Both the position numbers and the translations under genes were made by a program. Below are positions 47,239 through 64,000 of a stretch of DNA of 64,000 nucleotides, piece by piece. Source of the DNA: Sedimentisphaerales bacterium (GTDB lineage: Bacteria > Planctomycetota > Phycisphaerae > Sedimentisphaerales > Anaerobacaceae); assembly GCA_035527155.1 (NCBI GenBank), contig DATLBB010000074.1:1029-65028 (forward strand). The letters are read 5' to 3'. The notes below the pieces were generated by a model that was not told where the DNA came from, did no database searches, and saw only the letters and a list, made by a program, of their open reading frames with translations. Each line of letters opens with the position of its first letter. Position 1 is the stretch's first letter.

Positions 47239-47242
47239 AGAA

Positions 47243-48501: not shown

Positions 48502-49863
48502 TCAACTCTCGGTATTTAACAGTTGGTCCCACGATTGTGTAATAGCAGTCAACCGGCTGACAGTTTCTTCGAAATCGGTTCTCTCTCGAACAGGCTGAAT
48601 GAGAAAGGTGTTTATCCTTTCAATCAGGGCTATCGCCCCATCGATACGCCGATTGCTGCCCGCTGAAAACGCACCAATGTTTATTAAATCTTCAGCGTCA
48701 ATATAAATGGCATATATTTCTTTGAGCTTCTGTGCAGCAAGCTGGTGTTTTTTGCTCGTCACCGCCGGCATGAGTCGGCTGATGCTTTGTAAAATATCGA
48801 CAGCAGGATAATGTCCCCTGTCAGCCAATTTTCTTGACAGCACTATATGGCCATCCAGCAGACTCTTGGCACTATCAGCCACAGGGTCAGTCAAATCATC
48901 GTTTTCAACCAGGACTGTCAGAATACCTGTGATGCTGCCGGTCTCGGCACAGCCCAGACGTTCGATAAGTCTCGGCATCACCGAAAAAACGCTCGGACAG
49001 TAGCCCTTTGTGGCCGGCGGCTCACCCGCTGCAAGGCCTATTTCCCGTTGTGCCTGTGCAAACCGCGTAAGTGAGTCCATCATAAATAAAACGCTCATGC
49101 CCCTGTCCCTGAAGTACTCGGCTATTGTAACAGCTACGAATGCCGCCTTTACCCGCTGAATGGGAGGCGAATCCGATGCGGCAACGACGACAACACTGCG
49201 TGCCAGGCCCTCTGCACCAAGGTCGGCCTCGAGAAATTCGCGGACCTCTCGCCCACGCTCGCCTATCAACGCCACAACATTGACGGCAGCATCGCTCGAA
49301 TTGGCAATATCGCCGAGCAGAACACTCTTGCCCACTCCGCTGCCCGAGAAGATGCCTATTCGCTGCCCCCTGCCGCAGGTCAATACCCCGTCCATTGACC
49401 TGATGCCTAAAGCCAAAGGACGTGTAATCTTTTCGCGACTCAAAGGTGGCGGACTGCCTGCATCCAATAGCTTCTTGTCCGTCCCTGCTAACGGTCCCTT
49501 ACCATCGATAGGCTCTCCTAACCCATTTACGACTCTACCGAGAATGCTTTCGTTTAGACTAATATAGCGTGGGGTAGTTCTTGCAGTTACCGTATCGCCC
49601 GGTGATATGCCCTCTATATGCTCTAAAGGCAGCAGGATAAAGTGGTCGTTCTGGAAACCTACGACCTCAGCGAGCACTCGCCGGCCATCGCGAAGATGGA
49701 TACCGCAAAGCTCACCTAAGCCCACTACCGGACCATTAGATTCAATCGTCAGACCTGTGACCCGCACAACCGAACCGCGGCAATCTAACAGATTCACATC
49801 CTGCAGTGCCGAGTGAAATTTCTCAAAATCAATTGAGCATTTACTAAGCTGATTCGCAGTCAT
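48502..49863 (-). CDS. fliI: Flagellum-specific ATPase FliI
   Basis: Walker A GIFSGSGVGKSVLLG, Walker B VLFMMDSLTRFA, and an F1-beta-like sequence throughout. Confidence 0.95.
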   Translation of the reverse strand: MTANQLSKCSIDFEKFHSALQDVNLLDCRGSVVRVTGLTIESNGPVVGLGELCGIHLRDGRRVLAEVVGFQNDHFILLPLEHIEGISPGDTVTARTTPRYISLNESILGRVVNGLGEPIDGKGPLAGTDKKLLDAGSPPPLSREKITRPLALGIRSMDGVLTCGRGQRIGIFSGSGVGKSVLLGDIANSSDAAVNVVALIGERGREVREFLEADLGAEGLARSVVVVAASDSPPIQRVKAAFVAVTIAEYFRDRGMSVLFMMDSLTRFAQAQREIGLAAGEPPATKGYCPSVFSVMPRLIERLGCAETGSITGILTVLVENDDLTDPVADSAKSLLDGHIVLSRKLADRGHYPAVDILQSISRLMPAVTSKKHQLAAQKLKEIYAIYIDAEDLINIGAFSAGSNRRIDGAIALIERINTFLIQPVRERTDFEETVSRLTAITQSWDQLLNTES

Positions 49864-49866
49864 AAA

Positions 49867-50403
49867 TTATTCCGCCGTCTTAAGCGCTTTGCCGATTCGT
49901 TCCAGATGCTCCTCAATCAACGATTCGATTATTCCTTTTGGAGTCTCCAGCAAACATTCCGCCCGCCCAATATTTTGGTCCGAAACAAACTTAATACCGG
50001 CAAAGCTGCCATTCGGCTCATCTTGCTGCGCTTTCTGGCACAGAAGATGGTCTTCAGAATTCAAATGCACGACCACATCCTGACGTGTGGGAGCATTTTC
50101 AAGTGCTTCTTTGACAATAGCTTCTATTTCATAATCTCCATTCTGAACTTTTTGCACTAAAATCTTTCTGGCGATTTCCACGGAAAGTCTGGCAATTTCC
50201 TCTTTGTGCTCGGCAAATAATCGGTCGTAAAATTGATTGAGCTTGGCAACCACGTTCTTAATCGCAGATTTCGCTGATTCCAAGGATTTTAATTCTTCAT
50301 TATTTTCTGCGTAATCCGTGATTAATGATTTCTTTGCCGAATCGTCTAAGATTCTCACCGACACAATTGGCTTCTCAAGATGGACCGTAAGATTCTGCGA
50401 CAT
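49867..50403 (-). CDS. fliH: Flagellar export regulator FliH
   Basis: EEIARLSVEIARKILVQKVQNGDYEIEAIVKEALENAP...VVVHLNSED...IGRAECLLETPKGIIESLIEEHLERI. ATG 50403 lies 4 nt after the fliG stop. Confidence 0.75.
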   Translation of the reverse strand: MSQNLTVHLEKPIVSVRILDDSAKKSLITDYAENNEELKSLESAKSAIKNVVAKLNQFYDRLFAEHKEEIARLSVEIARKILVQKVQNGDYEIEAIVKEALENAPTRQDVVVHLNSEDHLLCQKAQQDEPNGSFAGIKFVSDQNIGRAECLLETPKGIIESLIEEHLERIGKALKTAE

Positions 50404-50407: not shown

Positions 50408-51409
50408 CTATCGCCCCACCATTCTAAGTTTGCCCTGCTCATTGGCTTCCCGCAGCGGCACGACAACTTCCTCTCTCGCATCAAGAACTTCTTTTTCCAG
50501 CGGCTCCTGCATCAGTGAAGCTTCTTCATCAAGCATAGCCGCAGCCCGCTCAGATATATTTGAGCGTATCTTTTGCGCGATCTCATCATCCGCCCCATAA
50601 AGCGCAACCGCCAATTTGCCTGAATCCACGGTTCGCAGCGCTTCCTGCAGAGACCTGTCAGCTACTGACCGAATATCTTCCCAGGTTACCATCAAATTCC
50701 TCACCGTCTTACCGGTTTCCTCATCGTGTTTGCCTATCTCACCAACCAATTGGTCTCGCAGGTCTCTCTCCAGACCACTTAGCATAATAGCAAGTTTTCG
50801 CAGATTTTGTTCCCGTCTTCCAGGTCTTATGACAAGGGTCTCTCCTTTGAGATCCCTCAGCCGCTCGTTAACCATAGTTGCCATCCGCTGCCTCACTTCA
50901 GCTCCCAGCACATCCGGATTGGTCATTTTGCAGACGGCTTTTAGACGAACTTCTTCACCCAAAAGTGACAGAACCTCCTGGCTTTTCTGGGGAGACAGCT
51001 CCGACAGTACGACAGCAACGGTCTGTGGGTGTTCACCCTCCAGTGCAAGAACCAATTCGTCGGTGCTGGCCGAACGAATATTCATAAACAGGTCTTTGTT
51101 TACCATAACTTTTTTAATCTGAGATTGAATTTGCTTCGCCTGCTCTTTGCCAAGGATGCTTACAAGCATCTCGCCGAGAAAAGTTTTTATGTTAAATGCC
51201 TGAGTCTGACTATCCTGAAGTGATTTACAGAACTCCTGGATGACCCTTGCTTGTTCCCTGGTATCGTGCTGCTCCGCTGCATCAATTCGCGCAAGCTCTA
51301 TGGCAATCTCCTGAATCTCTTCGGGTTCGAGCCCCTTGAGCAGCTCGGCAGCAGTCGGGGTATCCAGACTCATCAACAGCATCGCAGCTTTTTGCCTACC
51401 CGTCAGCAT
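50408..51409 (-). CDS. fliG: Rotor/switch protein FliG (canonical-looking copy)
   Basis: GRQKAAMLLMSLDTPTAAELLKGL, EHPQ motif, MVTWEDI, and the charged torque helix ISERAAAMLDEEASL. Confidence 0.9.
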   Translation of the reverse strand: MLTGRQKAAMLLMSLDTPTAAELLKGLEPEEIQEIAIELARIDAAEQHDTREQARVIQEFCKSLQDSQTQAFNIKTFLGEMLVSILGKEQAKQIQSQIKKVMVNKDLFMNIRSASTDELVLALEGEHPQTVAVVLSELSPQKSQEVLSLLGEEVRLKAVCKMTNPDVLGAEVRQRMATMVNERLRDLKGETLVIRPGRREQNLRKLAIMLSGLERDLRDQLVGEIGKHDEETGKTVRNLMVTWEDIRSVADRSLQEALRTVDSGKLAVALYGADDEIAQKIRSNISERAAAMLDEEASLMQEPLEKEVLDAREEVVVPLREANEQGKLRMVGR

Positions 51410-51416: not shown

Positions 51417-52487
51417 TTAATCCCTCTCATTCATCTCGCGCAAAACGTGGACAATTTCCTCTCTTGCTTCTTCAACATCTTTGTTCCCGCCGGCTGATAC
51501 ACACGATACTTCCTCATCCGGTAGGGTGGGTTTTAGCCCACAAATTATCGCAGTCGCTCGCTCGGAGATATTAGACATTATCTTTTGCACGAGCGAATAG
51601 TCGGCCCCGACCAATGCCAAGGCTAATTTCCTTTCATCAACTCGACTCAAGGCCCTTTGCAGCAATCTGTCAGCCACTTGCGGTATATCTTCCCAGAGTA
51701 TCGTAGGGGCGGTTCGTGAACTGCCCGTACTCCTCCTTTCACGACTCGACGACTCGACTGAGCTCGCCGAAGTTTGAGCTCGCCGAAGTCCGGCTTTGTC
51801 GTCTTTTCGCTGCACTGCACCAAGCAGACAATCTCGAAGCTCTCCGCCCAGGTTTCGCAAAATCACGGCGACCTTCCTTAAAGACCGTTCAAGGCGAGTT
51901 GGTAAAGCTTCACTTGTGTTATCGACCGTAACGGCATCGAGACGCTCGCACACCGTCTCTGCCATCCTCGCCTTTGCTTGCGCCGTCATATTCTCACAAG
52001 TGGTCATCCTGCTGACGACACTGAGCCGGATACCCTCGCCTAAAAGGTTGAGTACATCGGAGCTTTTCTTTGCCGGCAGTCCTGATAAAACGGCAGCAGC
52101 AGCCCGAGGGTGCTCTCTCTTCAGGACCGAGGCGAGCGTTCGCGAATCAACGAAGCGAATACGTGTAAAAGGGTCGCGTATCTGTAGCAAATTCCGTATC
52201 TGTGTCTGGATGTGCTCTGCTTTCTCATCGCCGACCGTACTTTTCAGCATTTCCTTCAAGAAGCTCTTATGTTGAAATCCTTCTTCGGCCTGAAGCGAAT
52301 TGCAAAACTGCCGGGCAACTTGGGTACTCTGCTTATCTCTGCGATAACCGGCGGCATCCAGATATGCCAATTCCATTGCCACTTCCTGAACAAGGTCGGG
52401 TTTAACACCTTTGAGCAGTTCAGCGGCAGTAGCAGCATCGAGGCTCATCAATAGCATCGCAGCTTTCTGTTTACCCGTCAATGCCAC
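51417..52487 (-). CDS. fliG: FliG paralogue (divergent C-terminal helix, internal insertion)
   Basis: GKQKAAMLLMSLDAATAAELLKGV, EHPR, ILWEDI. The torque-helix region reads ISERATAIICGLKPTL. There is an extra segment of roughly 22 aa within AGLRRAQTSASSVESSSRERRSTGSSRTAP. Confidence 0.85.
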   Translation of the reverse strand: MALTGKQKAAMLLMSLDAATAAELLKGVKPDLVQEVAMELAYLDAAGYRRDKQSTQVARQFCNSLQAEEGFQHKSFLKEMLKSTVGDEKAEHIQTQIRNLLQIRDPFTRIRFVDSRTLASVLKREHPRAAAAVLSGLPAKKSSDVLNLLGEGIRLSVVSRMTTCENMTAQAKARMAETVCERLDAVTVDNTSEALPTRLERSLRKVAVILRNLGGELRDCLLGAVQRKDDKAGLRRAQTSASSVESSSRERRSTGSSRTAPTILWEDIPQVADRLLQRALSRVDERKLALALVGADYSLVQKIMSNISERATAIICGLKPTLPDEEVSCVSAGGNKDVEEAREEIVHVLREMNERD

Positions 52488-54986: not shown

Positions 54987-55346
54987 TCATTTTACGCCTA
55001 TTGCCAATTCTATTTGGCTGTACTTCTTGTTTAGCAGCCGAATATACGCCTTGTAACGAAGGGTATTTTTGACCATTTGTCCCACTTCACCTTCCAAACT
55101 AACATCATTGCCGTTTGATTTTATCGGCGTTTGTTTGGGCTGATGAATCTGCGGCTCAACTTCACTCATATCAACGACACCAGGCGAATTCAGAGCCTTT
55201 GCAAGTAACTCTTCGAACTTGACATCGATTCTGCGGTATCCCGGAGTCTCAAGATTGGCAATATTATTGGCGATGGCCCTCTGACGAAGGCTTTCGGCCC
55301 TTATGCCGGCCTCAATTAAATCGACTATACTGCTCGTTTTAGACAT
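54987..55346 (-). CDS. flgB: Proximal rod protein FlgB
   Basis: RQRAIANNIANLETPGYRRIDVKFEE...VSLEGEVGQMVKNTLRYKAYIRLL. Confidence 0.9.
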   Translation of the reverse strand: MSKTSSIVDLIEAGIRAESLRQRAIANNIANLETPGYRRIDVKFEELLAKALNSPGVVDMSEVEPQIHQPKQTPIKSNGNDVSLEGEVGQMVKNTLRYKAYIRLLNKKYSQIELAIGVK

Positions 55347-55367
55347 CCTTGTTCCCTGATATCCCTG

Positions 55368-55410
55368 CCCGTCTTGGCTCGGCCCGTCTTGGCTCGGCTC
55401 GTCTTAGCGC
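55368..55410. repeat. 15-nt tandem repeat in the flgB leader
   Basis: CCCGTCTTGGCTCGG at 55368-55382 and 55383-55397, then the partial unit CTCGTCTTAGCGC. Confidence 0.8.
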
Positions 55411-55480
55411 AAGAAACCACAGCCATACCAAGCCGAGACAGGCACAAACCTTCACTTTTCAAGAAATATCAGCAATAATC

Positions 55481-55496
55481 GTGCCAGGTACTTACA
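55481..55496 (-). promoter_or_regulatory. Sigma-54 promoter (TGGCAC-GATTA-TTGCT) for the flgB operon
   Basis: Perfect consensus on the minus strand, 135 nt upstream of the flgB ATG. Confidence 0.7.
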
Positions 55497-55816
55497 GCCG
55501 GCCGTTTTCAATCCGTTAACCGGCTTAACTTTGCTAAAAACCGCCTAAAACTCAAATAACCGCCTATTTACTGCTTCACACAGACGTCCGGTTTCTATAC
55601 AAGCGCGTGGTTTTTTTAACAGGCCCACACCCGCCCGCCGTAACGCCTTTTCCCTGCACCTCAATTGAGCCGGAAATTCTTTCCCTTCCTAAGGAATATT
55701 TCTCCGCAACAACAGCTAACAGCCGGTCATTTAGGACCAATCGTTATCTTTTCAATTTCCATAAATCCTTTATTATTAGGCAGTTATCATCTAACAAAAG
55801 CCTTTTTTGCGACTAC

Positions 55817-55832
55817 TGGCACGCCGCTTGCT
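55817..55832 (+). promoter_or_regulatory. Sigma-54 promoter (TGGCAC-GCCGC-TTGCT) for fliK
   Basis: Perfect consensus, 34 nt upstream of ATG 55866 and divergent from the flgB promoter. Confidence 0.7.
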
Positions 55833-55865
55833 CAAAATACATTGGTTTTTTATAGGGATTGCTGT

Positions 55866-57581
55866 ATGAACAGCCACTTGTTGGCAATTGATAATATGTT
55901 CGCAAAAACAAGCGCTGCCGGTCCAGTTCCGTCAAAGCCCGCAGCAGTCAACAAAAGCGAGCAATTTTCCCCAAATCCACTTGATAATGCACCTTTCAGT
56001 AATGACCGTGGAACAATAACGGTCGACAATACCTTTGTTACTCCCCAAAACGGGCTCAAGAATGAACCTTCGCGACAGTTTAGCCATACGCTTCGCAAGG
56101 AAATTACGACTAAAGTGCCCCAGAAAGCTAATGATAGCCGAAATGCAAAAGGGCAAAACCAGGCCGTCCAGCCAGGCATAGCCCAGCTTTGGTTGGCTCA
56201 ATACTCCTTAAACACGGAGCAAGGCAAAGAAGGAATTGCCAGAAAAGTAGGGCCTAAGGCCGGATATGAACTTGCCCAAATGCTGACCAACTTAAGACCG
56301 GACATAATTCCTTCCGGAGCCGGAAAAACTGCCAAACTACACAAAAACGAAGCCCTTTTAACCATAGACCAAGGCCAAATCGGGTTCAAAGCCACTTCAC
56401 ATATGACTTCCAATCAAGGTGGAAACACGAGCACAATACAGTCATCCAACAGAACATTACTTATGACAAAAGGCCTTAACAGCCAGGAAAACGGCAAAGA
56501 ATTGATCCCTGAAACTCTTGTTGAAGCCGGCAACAAAATAACCACTGCCAGTAACAAACCTGCCATCGCAGGCAAGCCAGTCGTTGGCGACGGCCAGAAA
56601 GTATCGACATTGAATCCCAACTCCCCACCGGTTCAGGACAAATCCTCTGATCTTCAGTCCCAACTTGTCGGGCTTGGTCCGGAAAAATCGCCACTAATGG
56701 CCGAAAAGGCAGTATTGAATCCCAACTCCCCGCCGGTTCAGGACAAATCCTCCGGTCTTCAGTCTCAACTTGTCGGGCTTGGTCCGGAAAAATCGCCACT
56801 AATGGCCGAAAAAGCAGTTGACATCAAAATCAATCCCGTTCTGCAAGATCAAGTAGTCTCCGACGATGGCGTAAAGCAGGGCGACAAATCCCCAGCGAAC
56901 CATGCCTTCCAGATGCTGCATCGTCCGCAACTCCAGGTATCCACCGGCCAAATAAAAGACCGCGGCAGCTCGACCTCCAATAATAGCTCCAATTCAGGTT
57001 TCGAGCAGATGCTCTCTGCTAATAACGCCCAGAGTGCCATTGCAGAGCAATCATCCGCGTTTCCCGAGGCCGCAAAGGCCGATAATCTGCCATCTCAGAC
57101 TTCGCCCAGCACTGACTCTGCGAGCATTACCGACCAGATTCTGGAATCTATTCACAGCTCTTTACGCCAAGGCGACCAGCAAATCAGCATCCGGCTCAAT
57201 CCACCTGAGTTGGGGAAGGTATTGATAGAATTCAAGCAGCAGGAACACGAAATCACCGGCTTATTGGAAGTCAGCAAGATACAAACCAAATATGAGGTTG
57301 AGCAGGCACTGCCGCAGATAATCCAAAACCTTGCAGATTGCGGCATCGAGATAAAGCGGCTGGAAGTCATGCTATCTGATGGGGAACAATCAGAGCAACA
57401 GGCCCTTAAAGACCAATCGCTACAAGACGGCTGGGCCCAGCAACAAGACCCGGCGAATCAAAGTGCGGGGGCAAACAACACACCTGCCAACGAAAGGCTG
57501 ACAAACGACAATAGTTACGCCGGATTAAACGAACTACAGGAGATGTTTGTCACCAATCATTCAATAAACATACTGATATAA
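55866..57581 (+). CDS. fliK: Hook-length control protein FliK
   Basis: C-terminal Flg_hook-type domain QQISIRLNPPELGKVLIEFKQQEHEITGLLEVSKIQTKYEVEQALPQIIQNLADCGIEIKRLEV, with a long Pro/Gln/Ser-rich ruler region. ATG 55866 was chosen because the sigma-54 promoter lies inside the longer ORF that starts at 55665. Confidence 0.75.
   Translation: MNSHLLAIDNMFAKTSAAGPVPSKPAAVNKSEQFSPNPLDNAPFSNDRGTITVDNTFVTPQNGLKNEPSRQFSHTLRKEITTKVPQKANDSRNAKGQNQAVQPGIAQLWLAQYSLNTEQGKEGIARKVGPKAGYELAQMLTNLRPDIIPSGAGKTAKLHKNEALLTIDQGQIGFKATSHMTSNQGGNTSTIQSSNRTLLMTKGLNSQENGKELIPETLVEAGNKITTASNKPAIAGKPVVGDGQKVSTLNPNSPPVQDKSSDLQSQLVGLGPEKSPLMAEKAVLNPNSPPVQDKSSGLQSQLVGLGPEKSPLMAEKAVDIKINPVLQDQVVSDDGVKQGDKSPANHAFQMLHRPQLQVSTGQIKDRGSSTSNNSSNSGFEQMLSANNAQSAIAEQSSAFPEAAKADNLPSQTSPSTDSASITDQILESIHSSLRQGDQQISIRLNPPELGKVLIEFKQQEHEITGLLEVSKIQTKYEVEQALPQIIQNLADCGIEIKRLEVMLSDGEQSEQQALKDQSLQDGWAQQQDPANQSAGANNTPANERLTNDNSYAGLNELQEMFVTNHSINILI
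56610..56819 (+). repeat. 2 x 105-bp in-frame tandem duplication in the fliK ruler region
   Basis: Units at 56610-56714 and 56715-56819 differ at about 5 positions. They encode LNPNSPPVQDKSS(D/G)LQSQLVGLGPEKSPLMAEKAV twice. Confidence 0.95.
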
Positions 57582-57675
57582 ACAAATCTAAAAAACTTTC
57601 CGTCTATCACGAGCAACTTTATAGCAGATAGACAGAGATTTTGATTAAGCTGGCTTTTTTGTAAGAAAGGTCCGG

Positions 57676-60543
57676 ATGGGTCGAAATACAAAATTAAAGC
57701 GTTCGCACCGCCAAAAGAAGAAAAAGAAGAAACAAATGATGAGACAGTCCCCCAGCTCCAGGAGAGGCTGTTTAGATAATGACGAAGTGCAATTTACCAT
57801 TTCCAAAGACGGTCAGATACACGTTAGAGCATCTGAAGGCAAACTGCCGAAATTTTTAGTCAAAGCGCAGGATGCCGTGAAGTCCGGTCGAATCGAAGAA
57901 GCTCGCGCTCTTATCACTGATGACAATATCGAAATTGTTCGTAAGATGATAAAGAAGGACCCCTCAAACATCGGTGCAATGTATATGCTTCCAGTGATTT
58001 TAGTTGCTCTCAGAAAGTTTAAAAAGGCAGAGGAATGGTACGAGAATATTCTAAAAATTAAGCCGAATTGGGCCGTGTATAATGAGCTGGCAAATATCAA
58101 CCGAAAGAAACAGCAATATGCAAAGGAATTGGAATATCGCCAGAAAGCCCTCGAGGAAAATCCTGATAGCGGTATTTTGCTCAATAACTATGGAATGCAC
58201 CTGCTCCGAATAGGTCGTACCGAAGAGGCCAAAGAAATATTGATAAAAGCAGTCGAAAAAACCGCTTTCAACCCCCTAGTTCATTCTAATCTGATATTGT
58301 ATATGCATTACCTGCCGGAAATAAACCGCAGCGAGCTTTTTGAAGAGCACAAGCACTGGGCCCGGGTTCAGGCTCCTGTAACTTTGGCAAGAACATCTCA
58401 CGACAATGTCCCCGACCCCGACCGCCGGCTTCAAATCGGTTACATCTCACCTGATTTTAATTCACATCCGGTCCCACATTTCTTTGAAATACTACTCGAC
58501 GAGCAGAATCACCAGGGGATAGAGATCTTTGGATATAGCAACGTTGACTACCCTGACGCAGTTACCGAACGTCTAAAATCAAAGCTCGACCACTTCCGAA
58601 ACATCTGGGGTGTTGACGACCAGAAGGTCGTCGATATGATTCAAAAGGACAAAATCGATATTTTGGTGGACCTTGCCGGCCACACGGGCAACAATCGTCT
58701 GCCTGTGCTGGCACACAAGCCGGCTCCAATCCAGGTTACTTACCTCGGATTTCCCGATACGACCGGAATGGAGCAGGTCGATTATCGTTTTACAGACGAA
58801 TTGGCCGACCCGCCTGAATCACAAAAATTTCACACTGAGGAACTTATCTATCTACCGGATGGCTTTCTCTGCTACAAACCTGTCGATTTTGCACCGCCGG
58901 TAGGACCTCTACCGGCACTCAAGAATGGTTATATCACCTTCGGCTCTTTTAATAATAACTGTAAGATAAACCCGCTTATTATAGCAATCTGGGCTGAAGT
59001 TCTAAAAGTAAATGAAAATTCCCGCTTTATAATCAAGTTCAGAGGTGGACAAGACAAAATGCTGCAGAATCATTATTACAGCGAGTTCGAAAAGCTTGGT
59101 ATCGACTCTGATAGGATAGAAATCCATGGCGGAAAAAAGCCTGTTGAACATCTGAATATGTACAACCAGATTGACATTGCCCTGGATACCTATCCTTACA
59201 ATGGTACGACAACAACTTTCGAGGCCTTATGGATGGGCGTACCCCTAATCTCGCTGGTCGGGCAGCATCACATGTCCAGAGTCGGGTTGACGATATTGAC
59301 CCGTTTTGGTATGGGGTTCCTGGCGACCTCGACGCCTCAGGAGTATGTTATCAGGGCCACTGCGCTTGCAGCGAAACGAGAGACCCTTGCAGAAATGCGC
59401 GCTATAATGCGAAGGACAATAGCCGGCGCTTCATTGTGCAATACAAACAGGTTCGTTAGAAATGTGGAAGCTGCCTATCGAGAAATGTGGCACCGATGGT
59501 GTCGAGGCCGCGGCGTTGAGGTTGCTGCTAAGCAAGTTACTTCGGATGACCAAAGCGGCAGTGCCGATGCAGAAATCCATTCTGTAACCTCCGTTGAGCC
59601 GGCCCCTGAACAGTTGGAGCAGAGGACACCGAGAAACTCATTAGAAAAGCCCCCTGTCCGTATCTTTCACAACCTTGCCCGCGCTGGGGGAACACTTGTC
59701 TGCAAGTGCCTGGGCTGTATGAACAACATAGTACTTTTGAGCGAAATTCATCCACTCGGCAGCGCATACTTCAATCCTGTAACGCAGGCCCACAAGTGGC
59801 ACAATCTTCTGACGACGGAGGATATCCACACCCTCAGCGAGAAGAAAAACGTCGATTTCGTTGAAGCTATCAGCCTCATTGAGAGCCGCTGCGCCGAGAC
59901 CGGACGGAGCCTCGTAATTCGCGACTGGGGACATCTTGACTTTATAGCCGTGCCCTTCCTCAAGCAGCCGGGATATAAAATGATGTTGGCCGATGCGATT
60001 AAACCTGCTTTTGAAGTCCTACAGCTCGCACTCGTGCGGCATCCCCTGGACCAGTGGCTCAGCTTGAGCAAGCTTGCGCTTATGCACGGGAAATTAACCG
60101 TTGAGATGTTCTTGCGGGGATACCTGAGGTTTGCCGAACACAGCGCCAGGATTGGGTTTGCCCGTTACGAAGACTTTACTTCCGAGCCTGCCTGGCAGAT
60201 GAAAATCATTTGTGAAAAACTGCAGCTTGATTTCGATGAGGACTTTATCAATAAATGGTACGATTATGAAAAAATCACCGGCGATACAGGGAAACAATCC
60301 CGCGGCGCAAAACTTGGTCTGATTCAACCGCTTCCACGGCTGCCGGTGCCGCCGGAGCTTCTAAAACATTTCCACAAAAACGACGACTACTGGCAGGCGA
60401 TAGAACTGCTTGGTTATCCGGACGCCGAACAAGGCATATCCTCTGCCCCACACACAACGATTTCAATAAGTGCACCGGCAGTCAGCTCTGCCGAGAAGAC
60501 AGCGGATAGGAACTCTCCGAGGAACAAAAGCAGCACCTTATGA
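57676..60543 (+). CDS. TPR + GT41 (SPY/OGT-like) glycosyltransferase + C-terminal sulfotransferase-like domain fusion
   Basis: TPR units at residues ~60-220. GT41-like IGYISPDFNSHPVPHFF...DILVDLAGHTGNNRLPVLAHKPAPIQVTYLGFPDTTGM...FGSFNNNCKINP...ALDTYPYNGTTTTFEALWMGVPLISL. The C-terminal ~300 aa carry PAPS-binding-like motifs HNLARAGGTLVCKCL (5'-PSB) and VRHPLDQWLS (RxPxDxxxS, 3'-PB). Confidence 0.8.
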   Translation: MGRNTKLKRSHRQKKKKKKQMMRQSPSSRRGCLDNDEVQFTISKDGQIHVRASEGKLPKFLVKAQDAVKSGRIEEARALITDDNIEIVRKMIKKDPSNIGAMYMLPVILVALRKFKKAEEWYENILKIKPNWAVYNELANINRKKQQYAKELEYRQKALEENPDSGILLNNYGMHLLRIGRTEEAKEILIKAVEKTAFNPLVHSNLILYMHYLPEINRSELFEEHKHWARVQAPVTLARTSHDNVPDPDRRLQIGYISPDFNSHPVPHFFEILLDEQNHQGIEIFGYSNVDYPDAVTERLKSKLDHFRNIWGVDDQKVVDMIQKDKIDILVDLAGHTGNNRLPVLAHKPAPIQVTYLGFPDTTGMEQVDYRFTDELADPPESQKFHTEELIYLPDGFLCYKPVDFAPPVGPLPALKNGYITFGSFNNNCKINPLIIAIWAEVLKVNENSRFIIKFRGGQDKMLQNHYYSEFEKLGIDSDRIEIHGGKKPVEHLNMYNQIDIALDTYPYNGTTTTFEALWMGVPLISLVGQHHMSRVGLTILTRFGMGFLATSTPQEYVIRATALAAKRETLAEMRAIMRRTIAGASLCNTNRFVRNVEAAYREMWHRWCRGRGVEVAAKQVTSDDQSGSADAEIHSVTSVEPAPEQLEQRTPRNSLEKPPVRIFHNLARAGGTLVCKCLGCMNNIVLLSEIHPLGSAYFNPVTQAHKWHNLLTTEDIHTLSEKKNVDFVEAISLIESRCAETGRSLVIRDWGHLDFIAVPFLKQPGYKMMLADAIKPAFEVLQLALVRHPLDQWLSLSKLALMHGKLTVEMFLRGYLRFAEHSARIGFARYEDFTSEPAWQMKIICEKLQLDFDEDFINKWYDYEKITGDTGKQSRGAKLGLIQPLPRLPVPPELLKHFHKNDDYWQAIELLGYPDAEQGISSAPHTTISISAPAVSSAEKTADRNSPRNKSSTL

Positions 60544-60674
60544 ACGAAACCGACGACTGGCTGGAAAGACACGGCTTCAAACTGTGAATTCAAAATGAGC
60601 AAAACCAGTATTCAATTATCCTATAAAACCTGCTGAAAGGAACATAAAAACAACGAAAAAGAAAGACAAAAACT

Positions 60675-61547
60675 ATGGATACAAGACAAAAGTTAAGGCA
60701 AATAATGAAAGATAACTTCGCCTATAAAAATGTAGTTGACAAGTATAAGGAAACTTTCGAGATGGATATCAAGAAATTGATAGGCCAGACTGATCCCGAC
60801 GTTGAAGGCTTCAAAGATTACGAAGAACAACGTGACTTATCGGTGAAATTTGCGTGGGGGCATAACCATGACTTTGGCAACTTTGCCCTCGAAGGCAAAA
60901 TGGCTGACAGACATATCGAAATCATTGCTGATTTTATAGACAACTTCGCCCTTCCGTACGATTTAAGCGGAAAGAAAGTCCTTGATGTCGGAGTATGGAC
61001 GGGCGGTACGAGTCTGATTCTTTCTGCATTAGGCGCAGAGGTCACAGCTCTGGAAGAAGTGGTAAAGTACTCAAATACGGTCAATTATCTTGCCTCTGCT
61101 TTTGGGATCTCAAATTTGGAATGCAAACCTCATTCCTTGTATGAACTGGATGTTAGTGACGCTTATGACTTTGTCATATATTCGGGAGTAATATATCACG
61201 TCTCAGACCCCATATTATCACTGCGTGTCTTGTTCAACTCTCTGAAGGATAACGGACGGATATTTGTTGAGACTTACGGTATGCCAGGCAATAGTGAAAA
61301 AGTACCAGTTTTACTGTTTCTCGGACCACAGTTCATAACAAAAGGCTCCAAAAAGGATTTGACTCGGAGTGGATGGAATTACTTTGTTCCATCTCCTGTC
61401 GTACTGTACCTGTGGGTGGCCACCGTTGGCTTTGATGATATAACGGTCGGTAATCTCGATTCTTTCAAGCGAATCAAGTGCGCTGCCACTCGACATCAGC
61501 ATAAGGATATGTTGCGAGCAGGATTGTCTCGACCTAACATCCGATAA
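60675..61547 (+). CDS. Class I SAM-dependent methyltransferase
   Basis: Motif I KVLDVGVWTGGTSLILSALGAEVTALE, followed by YDFVIYSGVIYHVSDP. Confidence 0.8.
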   Translation: MDTRQKLRQIMKDNFAYKNVVDKYKETFEMDIKKLIGQTDPDVEGFKDYEEQRDLSVKFAWGHNHDFGNFALEGKMADRHIEIIADFIDNFALPYDLSGKKVLDVGVWTGGTSLILSALGAEVTALEEVVKYSNTVNYLASAFGISNLECKPHSLYELDVSDAYDFVIYSGVIYHVSDPILSLRVLFNSLKDNGRIFVETYGMPGNSEKVPVLLFLGPQFITKGSKKDLTRSGWNYFVPSPVVLYLWVATVGFDDITVGNLDSFKRIKCAATRHQHKDMLRAGLSRPNIR

Positions 61548-61632
61548 TTTCACAGCGGACCAACAACCGCTTTATTTTGTCGAGATGGAAAAACTCATCC
61601 CTGACATCGACCACACCGCCGACTGCCTCCTA

Positions 61633-61780
61633 AGACACGGCTGCGAACTGTGAATTCAAAATGACAGGCCGGATTGACGGCGACGTTGAAGGCTTCAAAG
61701 ATTACGAAAAAGAACGCGACCAACCGGAGGAATTTACCCGGGGGCATAACCATAACTTTGGCGCCTTTGCCCTCGAAGGG
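61633..61780 (+). pseudogene. Truncated duplicate of the methyltransferase 5' region
   Basis: Junction AGACACGGCTGCGAACTGTGAATTCAAAATGA matches 60567-60598. The 28-nt run CGACGTTGAAGGCTTCAAAGATTACGAA is identical to 60797-60824. GGGGGCATAACCATAACTTTGGCGCCTTTGCCCTCGAAGG matches 60856-60895. The reading frame runs into the convergent GT1 gene and lacks the methyltransferase core. Confidence 0.5.
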
Positions 61781-61801
61781 GAAACGGGAGCGCACGAGAA
61801 A

Positions 61802-62860
61802 TCACCGATGAAGCTTTCTTTTCTTCCATTTCCGACGGGCGGTCTCAATGGAGCGCAGGAAAGCCTCTTTGAAACCGGTCATTGAGAAACGCTCTATAGC
61901 GGTCTTTCGGGCCTCTTTGCCCATCATTGTCGCCAAAATCCTGTCTTCGAGCAACATACCGGCATATTTGCGCAATTCAGCAGGGTCGTCGCTGAGGAAA
62001 CCACTTATGCCGTGTTTGATAGGCGAAGTGGGATGCCGGTTGCCTAAAACGGGCATCCCCGCAGCCATCGCCTCTACTGTGGCCATATTGTATCCGTCTT
62101 CAAGCTCCGGATTAGCAGTATGGATGTAAAATCGATGAGACTGCAATGTCCTTTTCAGATGGTCCCAACTATTAGCAGCTCTAACACCTCGCATATCCGG
62201 ATTGTGCCCGACTATCCGTACCGGTATCCCATCAAATGCCTTTTCGTGAAGGTCCCATAATAAATACTGTTTGCGTATCTGAATAAAATTGGAAATGCGA
62301 AGACCGCTGGCTATCTCCCCGGAATACGGCAGATAATCGTCCGGGTCACTCCCAACGGGCACGATGTCCTCGGTAAAACCCCACAATTTGCCCTTCAACA
62401 TAGAGACAGCCACTACATGGCCGCCGACTAATTTCAGGTATTTATGCAGCGTCTCTTTCAGAGTTTGCGGTGCATCATCAGAACCTTCTTCCATCGCGCA
62501 TCCCTCGAGCGTGGAGTGAACGACCATAAGCCGGGGCTCGGGTCTGTGTTTAATATCAAGCAAGTCAGTTGTGCTGTGGGTTATGATACAATAGTAGCTC
62601 GTTTGTGACTGCTGCGCTTCCTGTAAAGTGATTAACCGTGAATTGGGCGGCACCGGCCTCATCTGCTCATCCCAGGTTGGTTTGTATCGGCCTTTAAGCC
62701 CTACGATTATATCGAGGTCATATCCCAAAACCCTGAGCTGATATACCCATGCCTCATAACAATTAAATACAAGCAGCGTCCGCCGAGAGGCGTCCTCCCG
62801 AGAGGGACACCCCTTGGTGCTTTCGGGACTTTTTTGAGTTTGTGTTTCCTGTTTCCGCAT
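61802..62860 (-). CDS. GT-B (GT1/GT4-type) glycosyltransferase
   Basis: C-terminal signature RFYIHTANPELEDGYNMATVEAMAAGMPVLGNRHPTSPIKHGISGFLSDD. Confidence 0.85.
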   Translation of the reverse strand: MRKQETQTQKSPESTKGCPSREDASRRTLLVFNCYEAWVYQLRVLGYDLDIIVGLKGRYKPTWDEQMRPVPPNSRLITLQEAQQSQTSYYCIITHSTTDLLDIKHRPEPRLMVVHSTLEGCAMEEGSDDAPQTLKETLHKYLKLVGGHVVAVSMLKGKLWGFTEDIVPVGSDPDDYLPYSGEIASGLRISNFIQIRKQYLLWDLHEKAFDGIPVRIVGHNPDMRGVRAANSWDHLKRTLQSHRFYIHTANPELEDGYNMATVEAMAAGMPVLGNRHPTSPIKHGISGFLSDDPAELRKYAGMLLEDRILATMMGKEARKTAIERFSMTGFKEAFLRSIETARRKWKKRKLHR

Positions 62861-63110
62861 ATATTGCCTGGACTATACCTGCTTGGAGCGGTCTGAGCAA
62901 GAATTATCCTTAATTGTTGTCAAAAGCGGTGTATAAATAAGGAAGTATTTACGTCCGGTAAAACTATAAAATTGGGAATTTGCGAAGTCGGCTTATTTTC
63001 GTGATTTTTTGGTTTTTTTGCCATTTTTAGCAGCTTCCCTGCAAATCATCCCGATTTCATCAGGATTATAGGTCTTATGATTTTGTAGCCCTTTTCTATT
63101 AACAAATTCC

Positions 63111-63137
63111 TAAAGTCGTCTCTTTCCTGACCGATAA
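63111..63137 (+). promoter_or_regulatory. Sigma-28 promoter upstream of flagellin
   Basis: TAAA-N15-ACCGATAA against TAAA-N15-GCCGATAA. 113 nt upstream of ATG 63250. Confidence 0.7.
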
Positions 63138-63249
63138 TGGGTATTGACAGTAAAGCTTTATGGCGTGTTCGTTGCACGTTAGATGTAAGTAAATTGGGGA
63201 TTTGACAAAGCCAATAGAGTGTTAGCTATTTTTTTAAGGAGTCAGAAAT

Positions 63250-64000
63250 ATGTTAGCAATTAAGAACAACCTTATGGCGGCAAATGCTGCAAGGCACCTG
63301 GGTAGAAGCTATGATGCCCTTGCCAAATCGGTCGAAAGGCTGTCGTCAGGCTTGCGCATAAACAGTGCCAAGGACGATGCAGCCGGCCTGGCTGTGCGAG
63401 AGCTGCTTCGCGCCGACATCGCTGTGCTCAACCAGGCGGGGCGAAACGCCGCCGACGGCATCAGCATGCTTCAGACGGCCGAAGGTGCAATGTCCGAGGT
63501 CGACAGCATTCTTATTCGTATGAAGGAGCTGGCAGAGCAGGCCTCAACAGGGTCATACTCTTCACCCCAGCGGACGATTATGAACGATGAGTATGCTCAG
63601 TTGTCCCTGGAGATCACCCGGATTGCCGAGAGTACCGACTTTAATGAGAACCAACTGCTGAACTCAACCACGGGCATTGACATCCACGTCGGTAGCACCG
63701 ACATGATCACCGTCACGCCGGAGTTGATGACCGCCACTGGACTTACCGTCGGTACCACGGCGGCAATCAAGGAAACCCACACTCACAATCACAGTGTCGC
63801 CTCGGCTGATGACCTCTATATATCAATCGCCGAATTCGGTGGAACTGGAACGGATGAGTTCGAGTTCCGGTTCGGCACACTTACCACAGAGACTTCTGCG
63901 ATAATCAATATTGACCTTGATGCATATGCGGCCACAGGTATTACCCTCAACGAGTTGGTCGAGGAAATCAACGACGCGGTGGAAGCTGATGGCACGCGTT
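63250..64000 (+). CDS. fliC: Flagellin, partial (3' end runs off the window)
   Basis: Absent from the ORF track because there is no stop in the window. AAGGAG lies 8 nt upstream. MLAIKNNLMAANAARHLGRSYDALAKSVERLSSGLRINSAKDDAAGLAVRELLRADIAVLNQAGRNAADGISMLQTAEGAMSEVDSILIRMKELAEQA is a classic flagellin D0/D1 N-terminus. Confidence 0.9.
   Translation, partial: MLAIKNNLMAANAARHLGRSYDALAKSVERLSSGLRINSAKDDAAGLAVRELLRADIAVLNQAGRNAADGISMLQTAEGAMSEVDSILIRMKELAEQASTGSYSSPQRTIMNDEYAQLSLEITRIAESTDFNENQLLNSTTGIDIHVGSTDMITVTPELMTATGLTVGTTAAIKETHTHNHSVASADDLYISIAEFGGTGTDEFEFRFGTLTTETSAIINIDLDAYAATGITLNELVEEINDAVEADGTR

What the first reader, a model, noticed from the sequence alone, without database searches (positions are those of the whole stretch)
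57676..60543. TPR + GT41 (OGT/SPY-like) + sulfotransferase fusion protein next to the flagellin gene
A single 955-aa ORF combines three parts:
- N-terminal TPR repeats.
- A GT41-type O-glycosyltransferase core (PDFNSHPVPHFF, HTGNNRLPVLAHKPAPIQVTYLGFPDTTG, YPYNGTTTTFEALWMGVP).
- A C-terminal region of about 300 aa with the two PAPS-binding signatures of sulfotransferases: LARAGGTLVCKCL around 59680, and RHPLDQWLS at about 60036-60062.

It lies between fliK and a methyltransferase / GT1 / flagellin group. The architecture suggests recognition of a protein substrate by the TPR domain, followed by O-glycosylation and sulfation by one polypeptide. I am not aware of a described flagellin modification enzyme with this domain combination.
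Basis: partly seen in the sequence, partly recalled or inferred. Interest (0 to 1): 0.65.

Follow-up and report, generated by a model that had tools for sequence, protein, structure and literature searches.

The report
Flagellin glycosyltransferase fused to a sulfotransferase
A real 955-residue gene next to the flagellin gene of an uncultured planctomycete joins a protein-binding repeat domain, a protein O-glycosyltransferase and a sulfotransferase, so the flagellar filament probably carries sulfated sugars, a decoration my literature searches did not find described for bacterial flagella.

Summary
ORF 57676-60543 (+) is one 955-aa gene. Three independent metagenome assemblies carry it without indels, and orthologues at 59-77% identity share the architecture, so it is not a frameshift artefact.

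- **Domains.** Residues ~59-232 are TPR repeats. Residues ~233-612 are a GT41 catalytic domain, closest to Arabidopsis SPINDLY (E=3e-115), with the catalytic Lys (K430) and the Tyr "donor-size gate" (Y508) conserved. Residues ~656-915 are a sulfotransferase.
- **Sulfotransferase evidence.** Alone it scores below Pfam threshold. A family profile hits CurM sulfotransferase (E=1.4e-6), with both PAPS-binding motifs aligned. The AF2 model (pLDDT 86.6) matches only sulfotransferases in its first 45 PDB hits.
- **Synteny.** The order fliK, fusion gene, modifying genes (methyltransferase and/or GT or extra sulfotransferase), flagellin is conserved in relatives.
- **Wider pattern.** Across 80 species representatives carrying this sulfotransferase family, 50 have a GT41 gene within 10 kb (44 within 2 kb), 12 are in-frame fusions and 23 have a flagellin gene nearby.

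Best reading: a bifunctional enzyme that O-glycosylates flagellin and sulfates the sugar. This is inferred, not shown. The window copy is a trimmed derivative that lost a second sulfotransferase domain; a relic lies at 60510-60587. The architecture is common in metagenomes but unstudied. I class it as a new variant of a known kind.

The parts
55665..57581 (+). fliK (flagellar hook-length control protein), the upstream neighbour on the same strand
   Evidence: Pfam Flg_hook E=1.3e-12. It holds the same position in orthologous loci L001-L005.
57676..60543 (+). The whole ORF: a 955-aa TPR + GT41 + sulfotransferase fusion protein (stop codon included)
   Evidence: An identical protein, P0121, occurs in independent assemblies. 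Three gap-free contigs cover it, and metatranscriptome contigs lie on it.
57676..57765 (+). Lys/Arg-rich N-terminal tail (MGRNTKLKRSHRQKKKKKKQ...); function unknown
   Evidence: Conserved in orthologues P0122-P0127. Strain-level substitutions occur at 57710, 57729 and 57733.
57850..58371 (+). TPR repeat region (aa ~59-232), the presumed substrate-binding domain
   Evidence: Pfam TPR_19, TPR_17, TPR_8 and TPR_2 hits at aa 101-204. A run of paired helices spans aa 59-232 in the model. It aligns to the C-terminal TPRs of SPINDLY.
58372..59511 (+). GT41 catalytic domain (aa ~233-612). Contains D260, H264, N426, K430 (catalytic Lys, nt 58963-58965), H492, Y508 (donor-size gate, nt 59197-59199) and T511-T514.
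   Evidence: PF13844 E=3.8e-49. SPINDLY 7y4i E=2.7e-115 over aa 113-614. Residues were mapped onto the SPY residues described in PMC9715652.
59512..59640 (+). Ser/Glu/Pro-rich linker between the GT41 and sulfotransferase domains (aa 613-655)
   Evidence: No secondary structure and low pLDDT. Length and sequence vary among orthologues. An RNA contig spans 59470-59620.
59641..60420 (+). Sulfotransferase domain (aa ~656-915). Motifs: 5'-phosphosulfate loop R669-A-G-G-T673 (59680-59694); SEIHP 689-693 (59740-59754), a candidate catalytic base; 3'-phosphate motif RHPLDQWLS 788-796 (60037-60063); RYEDF 830-834.
   Evidence: - Family profile against PDB: CurM sulfotransferase E=1.4e-6, with the motifs aligned.
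- 28 of 31 family members hit PF13469.
- AF2 pLDDT 86.6.
- The first 45 Foldseek PDB hits are all sulfotransferases, the best E=3e-8.
60510..60587 (+). Out-of-frame relic (ELSEEQKQHLMNETDDWLERHGFKL*) of the C-terminus of a lost second sulfotransferase domain. It overlaps the end of the ORF.
   Evidence: 71% identity to the last 24 aa of P0124 by tblastn; DNA read. The long orthologues carry a PF00685 domain here.
60675..61547 (+). SAM-dependent methyltransferase (290 aa), a likely glycan or flagellin modifier
   Evidence: Pfam Methyltransf_9 and Methyltransf_23. 66% identical to the methyltransferase at the same position in L003.
61658..61789 (+). Relic fragment duplicating aa 34-75 of the methyltransferase
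   Evidence: tblastn 62% identity, E=6e-14.
61802..62860 (-). GT1/GT4-type glycosyltransferase (352 aa), possibly extends the glycan
   Evidence: Pfam Glycos_transf_1, Glyco_trans_1_4 and Glyco_trans_1_2. An orthologue holds the same position in L001 and L002.
63250..64000 (+). Flagellin gene (N-terminal 250 aa; runs off the window), the presumed substrate
   Evidence: Translation. NCBIfam flagellin models E=1.6e-43. The full-length orthologue in L001 is followed by fliS.

Best explanation
The gene encodes a cytoplasmic, bifunctional flagellin-modifying enzyme of a Phycisphaerae-type planctomycete. I propose these steps, all inferred unless marked otherwise:
1. The TPR repeats bind flagellin before export.
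2. The SPINDLY-like GT41 domain transfers one sugar from a nucleotide-sugar donor to Ser/Thr hydroxyls of the Thr/Ser-rich variable region of flagellin. It uses the conserved Lys430 and the T511-T514 phosphate-binding loop. Tyr508 at the donor gate favours a hexose or deoxyhexose over GlcNAc.
3. The tethered C-terminal sulfotransferase domain uses PAPS to O-sulfate the newly attached sugar.
4. The neighbouring methyltransferase and GT4-type transferase modify or extend the glycan.
5. The flagellin is then exported and polymerised, giving a filament with a sulfated, negatively charged glycan coat.

Shown by computation: the domain identities, intact cofactor-binding motifs, a real fusion, and conserved linkage to flagellin and to GT41. 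Inferred: the substrate, the donor sugar, the order of steps and the site of sulfation.
For: - **Domains.** GT41 PF13844 E=4e-49 and SPINDLY E=3e-115. The SPY catalytic and donor-binding residues K665, N661, H728, Y744, T747/748, H495 and D491 all have identical counterparts.
- **Sulfotransferase.** Profile hit to CurM sulfotransferase at E=1.4e-6, with PRSGST, VRHP....S and RYED motifs aligned. 28 of 31 relatives hit PF13469. The equivalent domains of orthologues P0126 and P0227 pass the Pfam threshold. The model (pLDDT 86.6) matches only sulfotransferases in its first 45 hits. Motif residues are invariant in the family.
- **Real gene.** Three gap-free independent assemblies plus RNA contigs.
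- **Flagellin link.** fliK, fusion gene and flagellin are syntenic in loci at 71% and 61% identity. 23 of 80 species-representative loci of this sulfotransferase family have a flagellin gene within 10 kb. In cultured Desulfosediminicola flagellatus the stand-alone sulfotransferase and a TPR-GT41 gene lie between flagellin genes, and similarly in L009.
- **GT41-sulfotransferase coupling.** 50 of 80 loci have GT41 within 10 kb, 44 of them within 2 kb, and 12 are in-frame fusions scattered over at least 5 places in an NJ tree. 8 of 10 sampled long family members carry GT41, in more than one domain order.
- **Precedents.** TPR-mediated flagellin recognition by FlmG (PMC7591256) and GT41 enzymes in flagellin glycosylation islands (PMC4875605).
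Against: - There are no biochemical or mass-spectrometric data.
- The nearest structural relatives of the sulfotransferase domain are not carbohydrate sulfotransferases. They are CurM/OLS (acyl-ACP) and tyrosylprotein sulfotransferases, so the acceptor could be a protein side chain.
- The window sequence alone fails the Pfam sulfotransferase threshold.
- SPY Ser496, important for activity, is Pro265 here, though it is Ser or Ala in orthologues.
- 57 of 80 loci with this sulfotransferase family have no flagellin within 10 kb, so the family is not flagellin-specific.
- A second TPR-glycosyltransferase (35999-37516) in the same flagellar cluster could be the main flagellin glycosyltransferase.
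- No PAPS-synthesis or sugar-nucleotide genes lie in the window.
- The full-length structure model was too poor to judge domain packing.
Confidence: 0.55

Rival explanations
1. The sulfotransferase domain sulfates flagellin side chains directly (Tyr, Ser or Thr), like tyrosylprotein sulfotransferases. Glycosylation and sulfation would then be parallel or competing marks on the same protein rather than consecutive steps on one glycan.
For: Human TPST1 and TPST2 and a tick TPST are ranks 3-15 in the fold search (E about 1e-6). The TPR domain would bring either catalytic domain to the protein.
Against: The sulfotransferase family is tightly linked to GT41 genes (50 of 80 loci) and otherwise to sugar-modifying genes (L007: epimerase, aminotransferase, GT2, acetyltransferase). 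That fits a glycan acceptor. TM-scores to TPSTs are modest (0.45-0.49) and identity is 11-15%.
Confidence: 0.12
2. The enzyme modifies a substrate other than flagellin (another flagellar or surface protein, or itself). The position next to the flagellin gene would reflect co-regulation only.
For: Most loci of the sulfotransferase family (57 of 80) have no flagellin within 10 kb although many have GT41. L006 has TPR-GT41 plus five sulfotransferase genes and no flagellin within 8 kb. SPY and OGT have many substrates and modify themselves (PMC9715652).
Against: The position between fliK and flagellin/fliS is kept in lineages down to 61% identity. The split genes sit between flagellin genes in unrelated phyla.
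Confidence: 0.12
3. The sulfotransferase acts first on the nucleotide sugar or a free sugar, and the GT41 domain then transfers an already sulfated sugar.
For: Fusion of consecutive enzymes does not fix their order. No evidence here distinguishes the orders.
Against: Tyr508 gives a small donor pocket, as argued for SPY, which would hardly take a sulfated sugar. From general knowledge, known glycan sulfation usually follows transfer.
Confidence: 0.08
4. The sulfotransferase domain is catalytically dead or decaying, in a locus that is losing sulfation. The protein would work only as a glycosyltransferase.
For: The window gene has already lost a second sulfotransferase domain by a frame-shifting deletion. 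The locus holds a methyltransferase relic. Orthologue P0123 has Gln instead of the motif Arg.
Against: All family-invariant residues are intact in the window protein (R669, G671, G672, T673, S689, E690, H692, P693, R788, P790, D792, W794, S796). The domain is 74% identical to its closest relative.
Confidence: 0.08
5. The fusion is an assembly or sequencing frameshift that joined two genes.
For: In most other taxa the sulfotransferase is a separate 255-290-aa gene.
Against: Three independent assemblies have no indel. Orthologous fusions reach down to 42% identity, and 12 in-frame fusions occur among 80 genomes.
Confidence: 0.01

Closest known systems
Arabidopsis SPINDLY (GT41 protein O-fucosyltransferase; PDB 7y4i and 8dtf) and bacterial SPY-like GT41 such as Thermobaculum TtOGT (5djs)
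   Same: TPR repeats followed by a GT41 catalytic domain, alignable over aa 113-614 (E=3e-115). The catalytic Lys, the phosphate-binding TTTT loop, the stacking His and the Tyr donor gate are all conserved.
   Different: Only about 5-6 TPRs. Pro replaces SPY Ser496. It has a basic N-terminal tail and an extra C-terminal sulfotransferase domain. It is encoded in a flagellar cluster. The donor sugar is unknown.
FlmG of Caulobacter crescentus (a TPR-containing flagellin O-glycosyltransferase; PMC7591256)
   Same: A modular cytoplasmic enzyme with an N-terminal flagellin-binding domain (TPR, from the paper's text and my own knowledge of it) and a C-terminal glycosyltransferase domain. It is encoded with flagellar genes. 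This is the functional model for step 1.
   Different: FlmG transfers pseudaminic acid, was described as a new class of cytoplasmic O-glycosyltransferase, and is not known to carry a sulfotransferase. Homology between the two was not tested here.
GT41 (SPINDLY-family, COG3914) enzymes of enterobacterial flagellin glycosylation islands, mostly fused to methyltransferase domains (PMC4875605)
   Same: A GT41 enzyme next to flagellin genes, fused to a domain that modifies the glycan further. The locus content varies between lineages.
   Different: There the fused domain is a methyltransferase; that paper does not mention sulfotransferases. Here the fused domain is a PAPS-type sulfotransferase and the methyltransferase is a separate gene. 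Relative P0184 has GT41 + FkbM methyltransferase + sulfotransferase.
CurM and OLS sulfotransferase domains of polyketide synthases (PDB 4gbm, 4gox)
   Same: The closest relatives by sequence profile and by fold. The PRSGST-type loop, VRHP....S and RYED motifs align. In both cases the sulfotransferase is embedded in a multidomain enzyme and acts on the product of the preceding domain.
   Different: 16-17% identity. CurM sulfates a beta-hydroxyacyl-ACP to create a leaving group. There is no polyketide context here.
Sulfotransferases that modify the N-linked tetrasaccharide of Halobacterium salinarum glycoproteins, including archaellins (PMC11980604)
   Same: A motility filament protein that carries sulfated glycan, made with dedicated sulfotransferases.
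   Different: Archaeal, N-linked, assembled on a lipid carrier, and the archaellum is not homologous to the bacterial flagellum. Homology of the enzymes was not tested here.

Membership tests
CAZy GT41 (OGT/SPY family) | Catalytic domain matches the GT41 profile above the curated threshold | tested here: met
   PF13844 scores 167.8 bits against a cutoff of 25, E=3.8e-49. PDB SPINDLY E=2.7e-115; human OGT E=1e-50.
CAZy GT41 (OGT/SPY family) | N-terminal TPR repeats preceding the catalytic domain | tested here: met
   TPR_19, TPR_17, TPR_8 and TPR_2 hits at aa 101-204. Helical repeats span aa 59-232.
CAZy GT41 (OGT/SPY family) | Essential catalytic Lys (SPY K665, human OGT K842) and the nucleotide-phosphate-binding Thr loop | tested here: met
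   K430 and T511-T514 align to SPY K665 and T747-T750, and are invariant in 12 orthologues.
CAZy GT41 (OGT/SPY family) | Transfers a sugar to a protein Ser/Thr | not testable with these tools
   Needs an enzyme assay or MS.
SPINDLY-type protein O-fucosyltransferase | Tyr at the position of SPY Y744 (Cys917 in human OGT), which narrows the donor pocket | tested here: met
   Y508 aligns to it and is invariant in orthologues.
SPINDLY-type protein O-fucosyltransferase | Ser at the position of SPY S496, which positions the acceptor serine | tested here: not met
   Pro265 in the window protein; Ser or Ala in orthologues.
SPINDLY-type protein O-fucosyltransferase | Uses GDP-fucose as donor | not testable with these tools
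   H492 aligns to SPY H728, which stacks on the purine. That is suggestive only. There are no fucose-synthesis genes in the window.
PAPS-dependent sulfotransferase superfamily (Pfam Sulfotransfer_3 PF13469 / Sulfotransfer_1) | Matches a sulfotransferase profile above the curated threshold | tested here: inconclusive
   The window domain itself scores 13-14.6 bits against a cutoff of 27. The equivalent domains of orthologues pass: P0126 40.4 bits, P0227 32.3 bits. 28 of 31 family members hit PF13469 at E<=0.01, the best 1e-8. There is no NCBIfam model.
PAPS-dependent sulfotransferase superfamily (Pfam Sulfotransfer_3 PF13469 / Sulfotransfer_1) | 5'-phosphosulfate-binding loop (P-K/R-x-G-T/S-T type) | tested here: met
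   LARAGGT (R669...T673) aligns to SSPRSGST of CurM and OLS sulfotransferases in the profile alignment. The Gly and Thr of the loop are invariant in 62 family members (G19, T21); the Arg is at least 90% conserved (R17) and is Gln in orthologue P0123.
PAPS-dependent sulfotransferase superfamily (Pfam Sulfotransfer_3 PF13469 / Sulfotransfer_1) | 3'-phosphate-binding motif (R-x-P-x...S) | tested here: met
   VRHPLDQWLS (R788...S796) aligns to LVRHPYSVIES of CurM sulfotransferase. R, P and S are invariant in the family.
PAPS-dependent sulfotransferase superfamily (Pfam Sulfotransfer_3 PF13469 / Sulfotransfer_1) | Sulfotransferase fold | tested here: met
   AF2 pLDDT 86.6, pTM 0.82. The first 45 Foldseek PDB hits are all sulfotransferases: 4gbm E=3e-8, TM 0.54-0.59.
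PAPS-dependent sulfotransferase superfamily (Pfam Sulfotransfer_3 PF13469 / Sulfotransfer_1) | Catalytic base and PAPS-dependent sulfate transfer | not testable with these tools
   E690 and H692 (SEIHP: S, E and P invariant in 62 family members, H invariant in the 31- and 12-sequence alignments) are candidates. I recall an E-x-H arrangement in CurM sulfotransferase, but that is from memory and was not verified here.
Flagellin glycosylation system (flagellin glycosylation island) | Glycosyltransferase gene adjacent to flagellin gene(s), conserved across relatives | tested here: met
   The order fliK, fusion gene, flagellin, fliS holds in L001-L005 and in L010 and L012-L015. The split version lies between flagellin genes in L056 and L009.
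Flagellin glycosylation system (flagellin glycosylation island) | Flagellin is actually glycosylated, and the modification depends on the gene | not testable with these tools
   Needs MS and genetics.
Tyrosylprotein sulfotransferase (TPST/RaxST type), considered | Sulfates Tyr in a bound peptide | not testable with these tools
   Fold similarity only (E about 1e-6, TM 0.45-0.49, 11-15% identity). No sequence-level hit to TPST in the PDB profile searches.

The most novel reading that the evidence does not exclude
Bacterial flagellin carries a sulfate-based post-translational modification made by a widespread GT41-sulfotransferase module. In the most unusual version, the sulfotransferase domain sulfates flagellin Ser/Thr/Tyr side chains directly, or uses sulfate as an activating or leaving group, instead of simply decorating the sugar. 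Its nearest structural relatives are tyrosylprotein sulfotransferases and the 'activating' CurM sulfotransferase. That would be a new kind of protein chemistry on a bacterial filament.
Probability: 0.12. Interest if true: 0.8.

Novelty: new variant of a known kind. Interest (0 to 1): 0.55.

Why it matters
Flagellin glycosylation is known to affect filament assembly, motility, immune recognition and phage or predator interactions. The described bacterial flagellin glycans carry methyl, acetyl, formyl, amino-acid or phosphate decorations. My nine full-text searches found no description of sulfated bacterial flagellin or of a GT41-sulfotransferase enzyme.

If the prediction holds, it adds a strongly anionic modification to the bacterial flagellum. 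It also defines a two-step protein-modifying enzyme, glycosylate then sulfate, in one chain. The sulfotransferase family has about 450 clusters at E<=1e-30 and currently has no curated NCBIfam model; relatives named in NCBI records are called 'hypothetical protein' or, when fused, 'O-GlcNAc transferase family protein'. The prediction would give this family a function.

The module occurs in Planctomycetota, Alpha-, Gamma- and Zetaproteobacteria and Thermodesulfobacteriota from sediments and soils. A cultured carrier, Desulfosediminicola flagellatus IMCC35005, makes the prediction directly testable.

Tried and rejected
- **Single-sequence searches of the C-terminal region.** Pfam, NCBIfam and PDB gave only sub-threshold or no hits. 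A family profile and a structure model were needed.
- **Full-length AF2 model.** With a 12-sequence alignment it was poor (pLDDT 56.5, pTM 0.41), so nothing can be said about how the sulfotransferase packs against GT41.
- **Frameshift or assembly-artefact hypothesis.** Rejected.
- **Literature.** Searches for sulfated flagellin, flagellin + sulfotransferase, GT41 + flagellin, OGT + sulfotransferase-domain fusions, and glycosylation island + sulfotransferase found no description of such an enzyme. They returned only archaeal N-glycan sulfotransferases and enterobacterial GT41-methyltransferase fusions.
- **Promoter and terminator scan of 55300-63400.** It found no more sites than shuffled sequence, so it gives no operon information.
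- **PAPS-synthesis or nucleotide-sugar genes.** I scanned 29 of the longer ORFs by Pfam; the stretch 42300-50400 was not scanned. Every one that hit a family was flagellar, regulatory, TPR or GLUG-motif.
- **Stand-alone homologue loci.** Two of four inspected (L007, L008) had neither GT41 nor flagellin nearby. The association is frequent but not universal.
- **Chance control.** No computed control exists for the co-occurrence numbers. The argument rests on the clustering of GT41 at under 2 kb (44 of 50) and on the rarity of flagellin loci in genomes, which is general knowledge.

Full report

The ORF listing and translation give a single ATG-to-TGA ORF at 57676-60543 (+) of 955 aa.

Three public metagenome runs from three different samples and studies each contain a 6493-nt contig that covers 57400-61700. 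None has an inserted or deleted base, and they differ by only 2-3 substitutions near the 5' end of the ORF (57710-57839). Contigs from a soil metatranscriptome lie on the ORF, including 59235-59441 and 59470-59620 at the GT41-linker border.

The protein database holds an identical sequence (P0121). It also holds same-architecture orthologues at 77% (P0122, 944 aa), 71% (P0123, 951 aa; an NCBI Planctomycetota MAG, annotated 'O-linked N-acetylglucosamine transferase family protein') and 69% (P0125) identity.

**2. The three parts**

*TPR and GT41.* Pfam finds TPR repeats (aa ~100-205) and Glyco_transf_41 at E=3.8e-49. The best solved relative is Arabidopsis SPINDLY (7y4i, E=2.7e-115, aa 113-614). 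Next come Thermobaculum TtOGT (5djs, 4e-79) and human OGT (1e-50).

I mapped the residues that Zhu et al. (PMC9715652) describe for SPY onto the alignment:

| SPY residue | Window residue |
|---|---|
| K665 (essential) | K430 |
| N661 | N426 |
| H728 (stacks on the purine) | H492 |
| Y744 (donor-size gate; Cys917 in human OGT) | Y508 |
| T747/T748 | T511/T512 |
| D491/H495 | D260/H264 |
| S496 | P265 (not conserved; Ser or Ala in orthologues) |

. The GT41 domain therefore looks catalytically competent. By the argument of that paper it is unlikely to use UDP-GlcNAc. 'OGT-like' should be read as 'SPY-like GT41 with unknown, probably small, sugar donor'.

*C-terminal domain.* On its own it gives only weak hits: PF13469 at E=0.04 and the OLS sulfotransferase 4gox at E=0.55. 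A homology search returns 524 relatives. Almost all are stand-alone proteins of 255-290 aa at 46-57% identity, and many carry a precomputed PF13469 hit.

- In a 31-sequence alignment, 28 members hit PF13469 (best E=1e-8).
- A 62-sequence profile hits CurM sulfotransferase (4gbm) at E=1.4e-6 and the OLS sulfotransferase at 3e-4.
- The HMMER alignments pair the family's 'nLArsGgTli' with 'SSPRSGSTLL' (5'-phosphosulfate loop), 'lvRhPidqwlS' with 'LVRHPYSVIES' (3'-phosphate motif) and 'vrYEDf' with 'IRYEDL'.
- An AlphaFold2 model of aa 641-955 is confident (pLDDT 86.6, pTM 0.82). Its first 45 Foldseek matches in the PDB are all sulfotransferases: CurM and OLS (3-4e-8), TPST1 and TPST2 (about 1e-6), SULT7A1, Teg12 and Stf1.
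- The equivalent domains of orthologues P0126 and P0227 pass Pfam's threshold, in P0227 over profile positions 7-216 of 216.

The residues invariant across the 31-sequence family alignment are all intact here: R669, G671, T673, S689, E690, H692, P693, R788, P790, D792, W794, S796. G672 is at least 90% conserved there and invariant among the 12 orthologues.

A profile search of 1.84 billion cluster representatives finds 1102 proteins at E<=1e-10 and 454 at E<=1e-30. No NCBIfam model covers the family.

**3. Context**

The window is largely one flagellar gene cluster. It holds flhA, a FliA-type sigma factor, two sigma-54 activators, flgE/F/G/A/I/K/L, fliD, flhB, and fliG (two copies)-fliF-fliE-flgC-flgB. 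The locus of interest reads: fliK, the fusion gene, a SAM methyltransferase, a GT4-type glycosyltransferase on the minus strand, then flagellin (63250 onward; NCBIfam flagellin E=1.6e-43).

The same order recurs in relatives:
- **P0123 locus (71% identity):** fliK, fusion, GT, flagellin, fliS.
- **P0126 locus (61% identity):** fliK, fusion with two sulfotransferase domains, methyltransferase, a third stand-alone sulfotransferase, flagellin, fliS.

The closest genome records are Phycisphaerae, Sedimentisphaerales and 'Pirellulales' MAGs (74-80% aa identity). The window most likely comes from a Phycisphaerae-type planctomycete.

**4. The GT41-sulfotransferase pairing is general**

I scanned one genome per species (GTDB) with the sulfotransferase-family alignment. 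It gave 160 relatives, and I examined the best 80 loci. By tblastn with the window's domains:
- 50 of 80 loci have a GT41 catalytic domain within 10 kb, and 44 of those are within 2 kb.
- 23 of 80 have a flagellin gene, and 20 have both.
- 12 of 80 are in-frame fusions. They occur in the Phycisphaerae group and also in Desulfobacterales, Desulfobulbaceae, Planctomycetales, two Gammaproteobacteria and a Rhodospirillaceae MAG.

In a crude NJ tree the fused forms fall in at least five separate places. Of ten long family members taken from the representative search, eight carry GT41. One of them has the sulfotransferase at the N-terminus. So the two genes have been fused or split repeatedly. That is the classic signature of two activities acting in one pathway.

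In the cultured Desulfosediminicola flagellatus IMCC35005 the order is: flagellin, sulfotransferase (263 aa), TPR-GT41 (1130 aa), flagellin, flagellin. In an alphaproteobacterial MAG the sulfotransferase, another sulfotransferase and a TPR-GT41 sit among fliW, flagellins, fliD and fliS.

The association is not universal. Two of four stand-alone loci inspected lacked both GT41 and flagellin. One of those lay among sugar-modifying genes.

**5. How it most likely works**

Shown by computation:
- domain identities;
- intact cofactor and catalytic motifs;
- a real, transcribed fusion;
- conserved linkage to flagellin and to GT41.

Inferred:
- The TPR domain recognises flagellin in the cytoplasm, as the N-terminal domain of FlmG does (PMC7591256).
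- GT41 puts a small sugar on Ser/Thr of the Thr/Ser-rich variable region.
- The tethered sulfotransferase then O-sulfates that sugar with PAPS.
- The methyltransferase and GT4-type enzyme add further decoration.
- The modified flagellin is then exported.

The flagellar cluster contains no dedicated sugar-nucleotide genes, which suggests a common housekeeping sugar as donor. I put about 0.55 on this complete statement.

Rivals:
- direct sulfation of flagellin side chains (0.12), because TPSTs are among the nearest folds;
- a non-flagellin substrate (0.12);
- sulfation of the donor before transfer (0.08);
- an inactive sulfotransferase in a decaying locus (0.08);
- artefact (0.01).

**6. The window copy is a trimmed derivative**

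Longer orthologues (P0124, P0126-P0128, P0182, P0186, P0187; 1148-1281 aa) continue after the first sulfotransferase into a second one of the PF00685 type. In the window, the tail of the ORF aligns to the linker that precedes that second domain.

Nucleotides 60510-60587, in another frame, encode ELSEEQKQHLMNETDDWLERHGFKL*. This is 71% identical to the last 24 residues of P0124. A deletion whose length is not a multiple of three therefore removed the second domain and left 11-12 frameshifted codons before the stop. P0122 and P0123 carry in-frame deletions with different end points.

A 42-codon relic of the methyltransferase gene lies at 61658-61789. The locus is being remodelled, as is usual for flagellin glycosylation islands.

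**7. Comparison with what is known, and novelty**

GT41 (SPINDLY-family) enzymes in flagellin glycosylation islands are known. In Enterobacteriaceae they are mostly fused to methyltransferase domains (PMC4875605). TPR-guided flagellin glycosyltransferases are known (FlmG). Sulfated glycans on archaeal archaellins and their sulfotransferases are known (PMC11980604).

I found no paper on sulfation of bacterial flagellin or on a GT41-sulfotransferase enzyme. The search covers open-access full text only.

The domain combination is frequent in metagenomic protein sets, so it is not rare. It is simply uncharacterised and under-annotated. I class it as a new variant of a known kind, with interest 0.55. 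The prediction is specific, widespread and directly testable in a cultured organism, but it rests on inference.

Noticed in passing
window 60510-60587 (+, frame different from the ORF): A 25-codon relic (ELSEEQKQHLMNETDDWLERHGFKL*) of the C-terminus of a second, PF00685-type sulfotransferase domain that longer orthologues still have. The window gene lost that domain by a frame-shifting deletion.
   Followed up: yes
window 61658-61789 (+): A 42-aa relic copy of the N-terminal part (aa 34-75) of the neighbouring methyltransferase, 62% identical to it. Its last bases abut the 3' end of the minus-strand glycosyltransferase gene, which begins at 61802.
   Followed up: partly
window 35999-37516 (+) and 37628-38290 (+): A second TPR + GT1/GT4-type glycosyltransferase (505 aa) lies between flgL and fliD. 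It is followed by a 220-aa all-TPR protein with SycD/LcrH-type chaperone hits. It is another candidate flagellin or hook-associated-protein glycosyltransferase in the same cluster.
   Followed up: partly
window 50408-51409 and 51417-52487 (-): Two tandem fliG paralogues (333 and 356 aa). The duplication is also present in orthologous locus L001, but L003 has a single fliG.
   Followed up: no
window 57676-57765 (+): A conserved Lys/Arg-rich N-terminal tail of the fusion protein (predicted helix, aa 5-22). Strain-level substitutions occur at 57710 (R12H), 57729 (silent) and 57733 (Q20K) in two of three assemblies. Function unknown.
   Followed up: partly
window 2609-5902 (+): A 1097-aa protein made largely of GLUG motifs (Pfam E=2.4e-69), at the edge of the flagellar cluster.
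   Followed up: no
L056 10025-14281 (Desulfosediminicola flagellatus IMCC35005, NZ_CP050698.1): A cultured isolate carries the split version. The stand-alone sulfotransferase (263 aa) and a TPR-GT41 (1130 aa; its C-terminal ~450 aa have no Pfam hit) are flanked by two identical-length 628-aa flagellin genes and one of 725 aa.
   Followed up: partly
L006 (metagenome contig, 16.8 kb): A locus with a TPR-GT41 gene, five sulfotransferase-domain genes (two of them TPR-sulfotransferase fusions), two methyltransferases and further glycosyltransferases, but no flagellin within 8 kb. It suggests the module also serves other substrates.
   Followed up: no
P0241 (2416 aa), P0184 (1319 aa): Larger relatives. 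P0241 has three stretches matching this sulfotransferase family. P0184 is TPR + GT41 + FkbM methyltransferase + Sulfotransfer_1. Together they point to a combinatorial family of GT41-based multi-enzyme chains.
   Followed up: no
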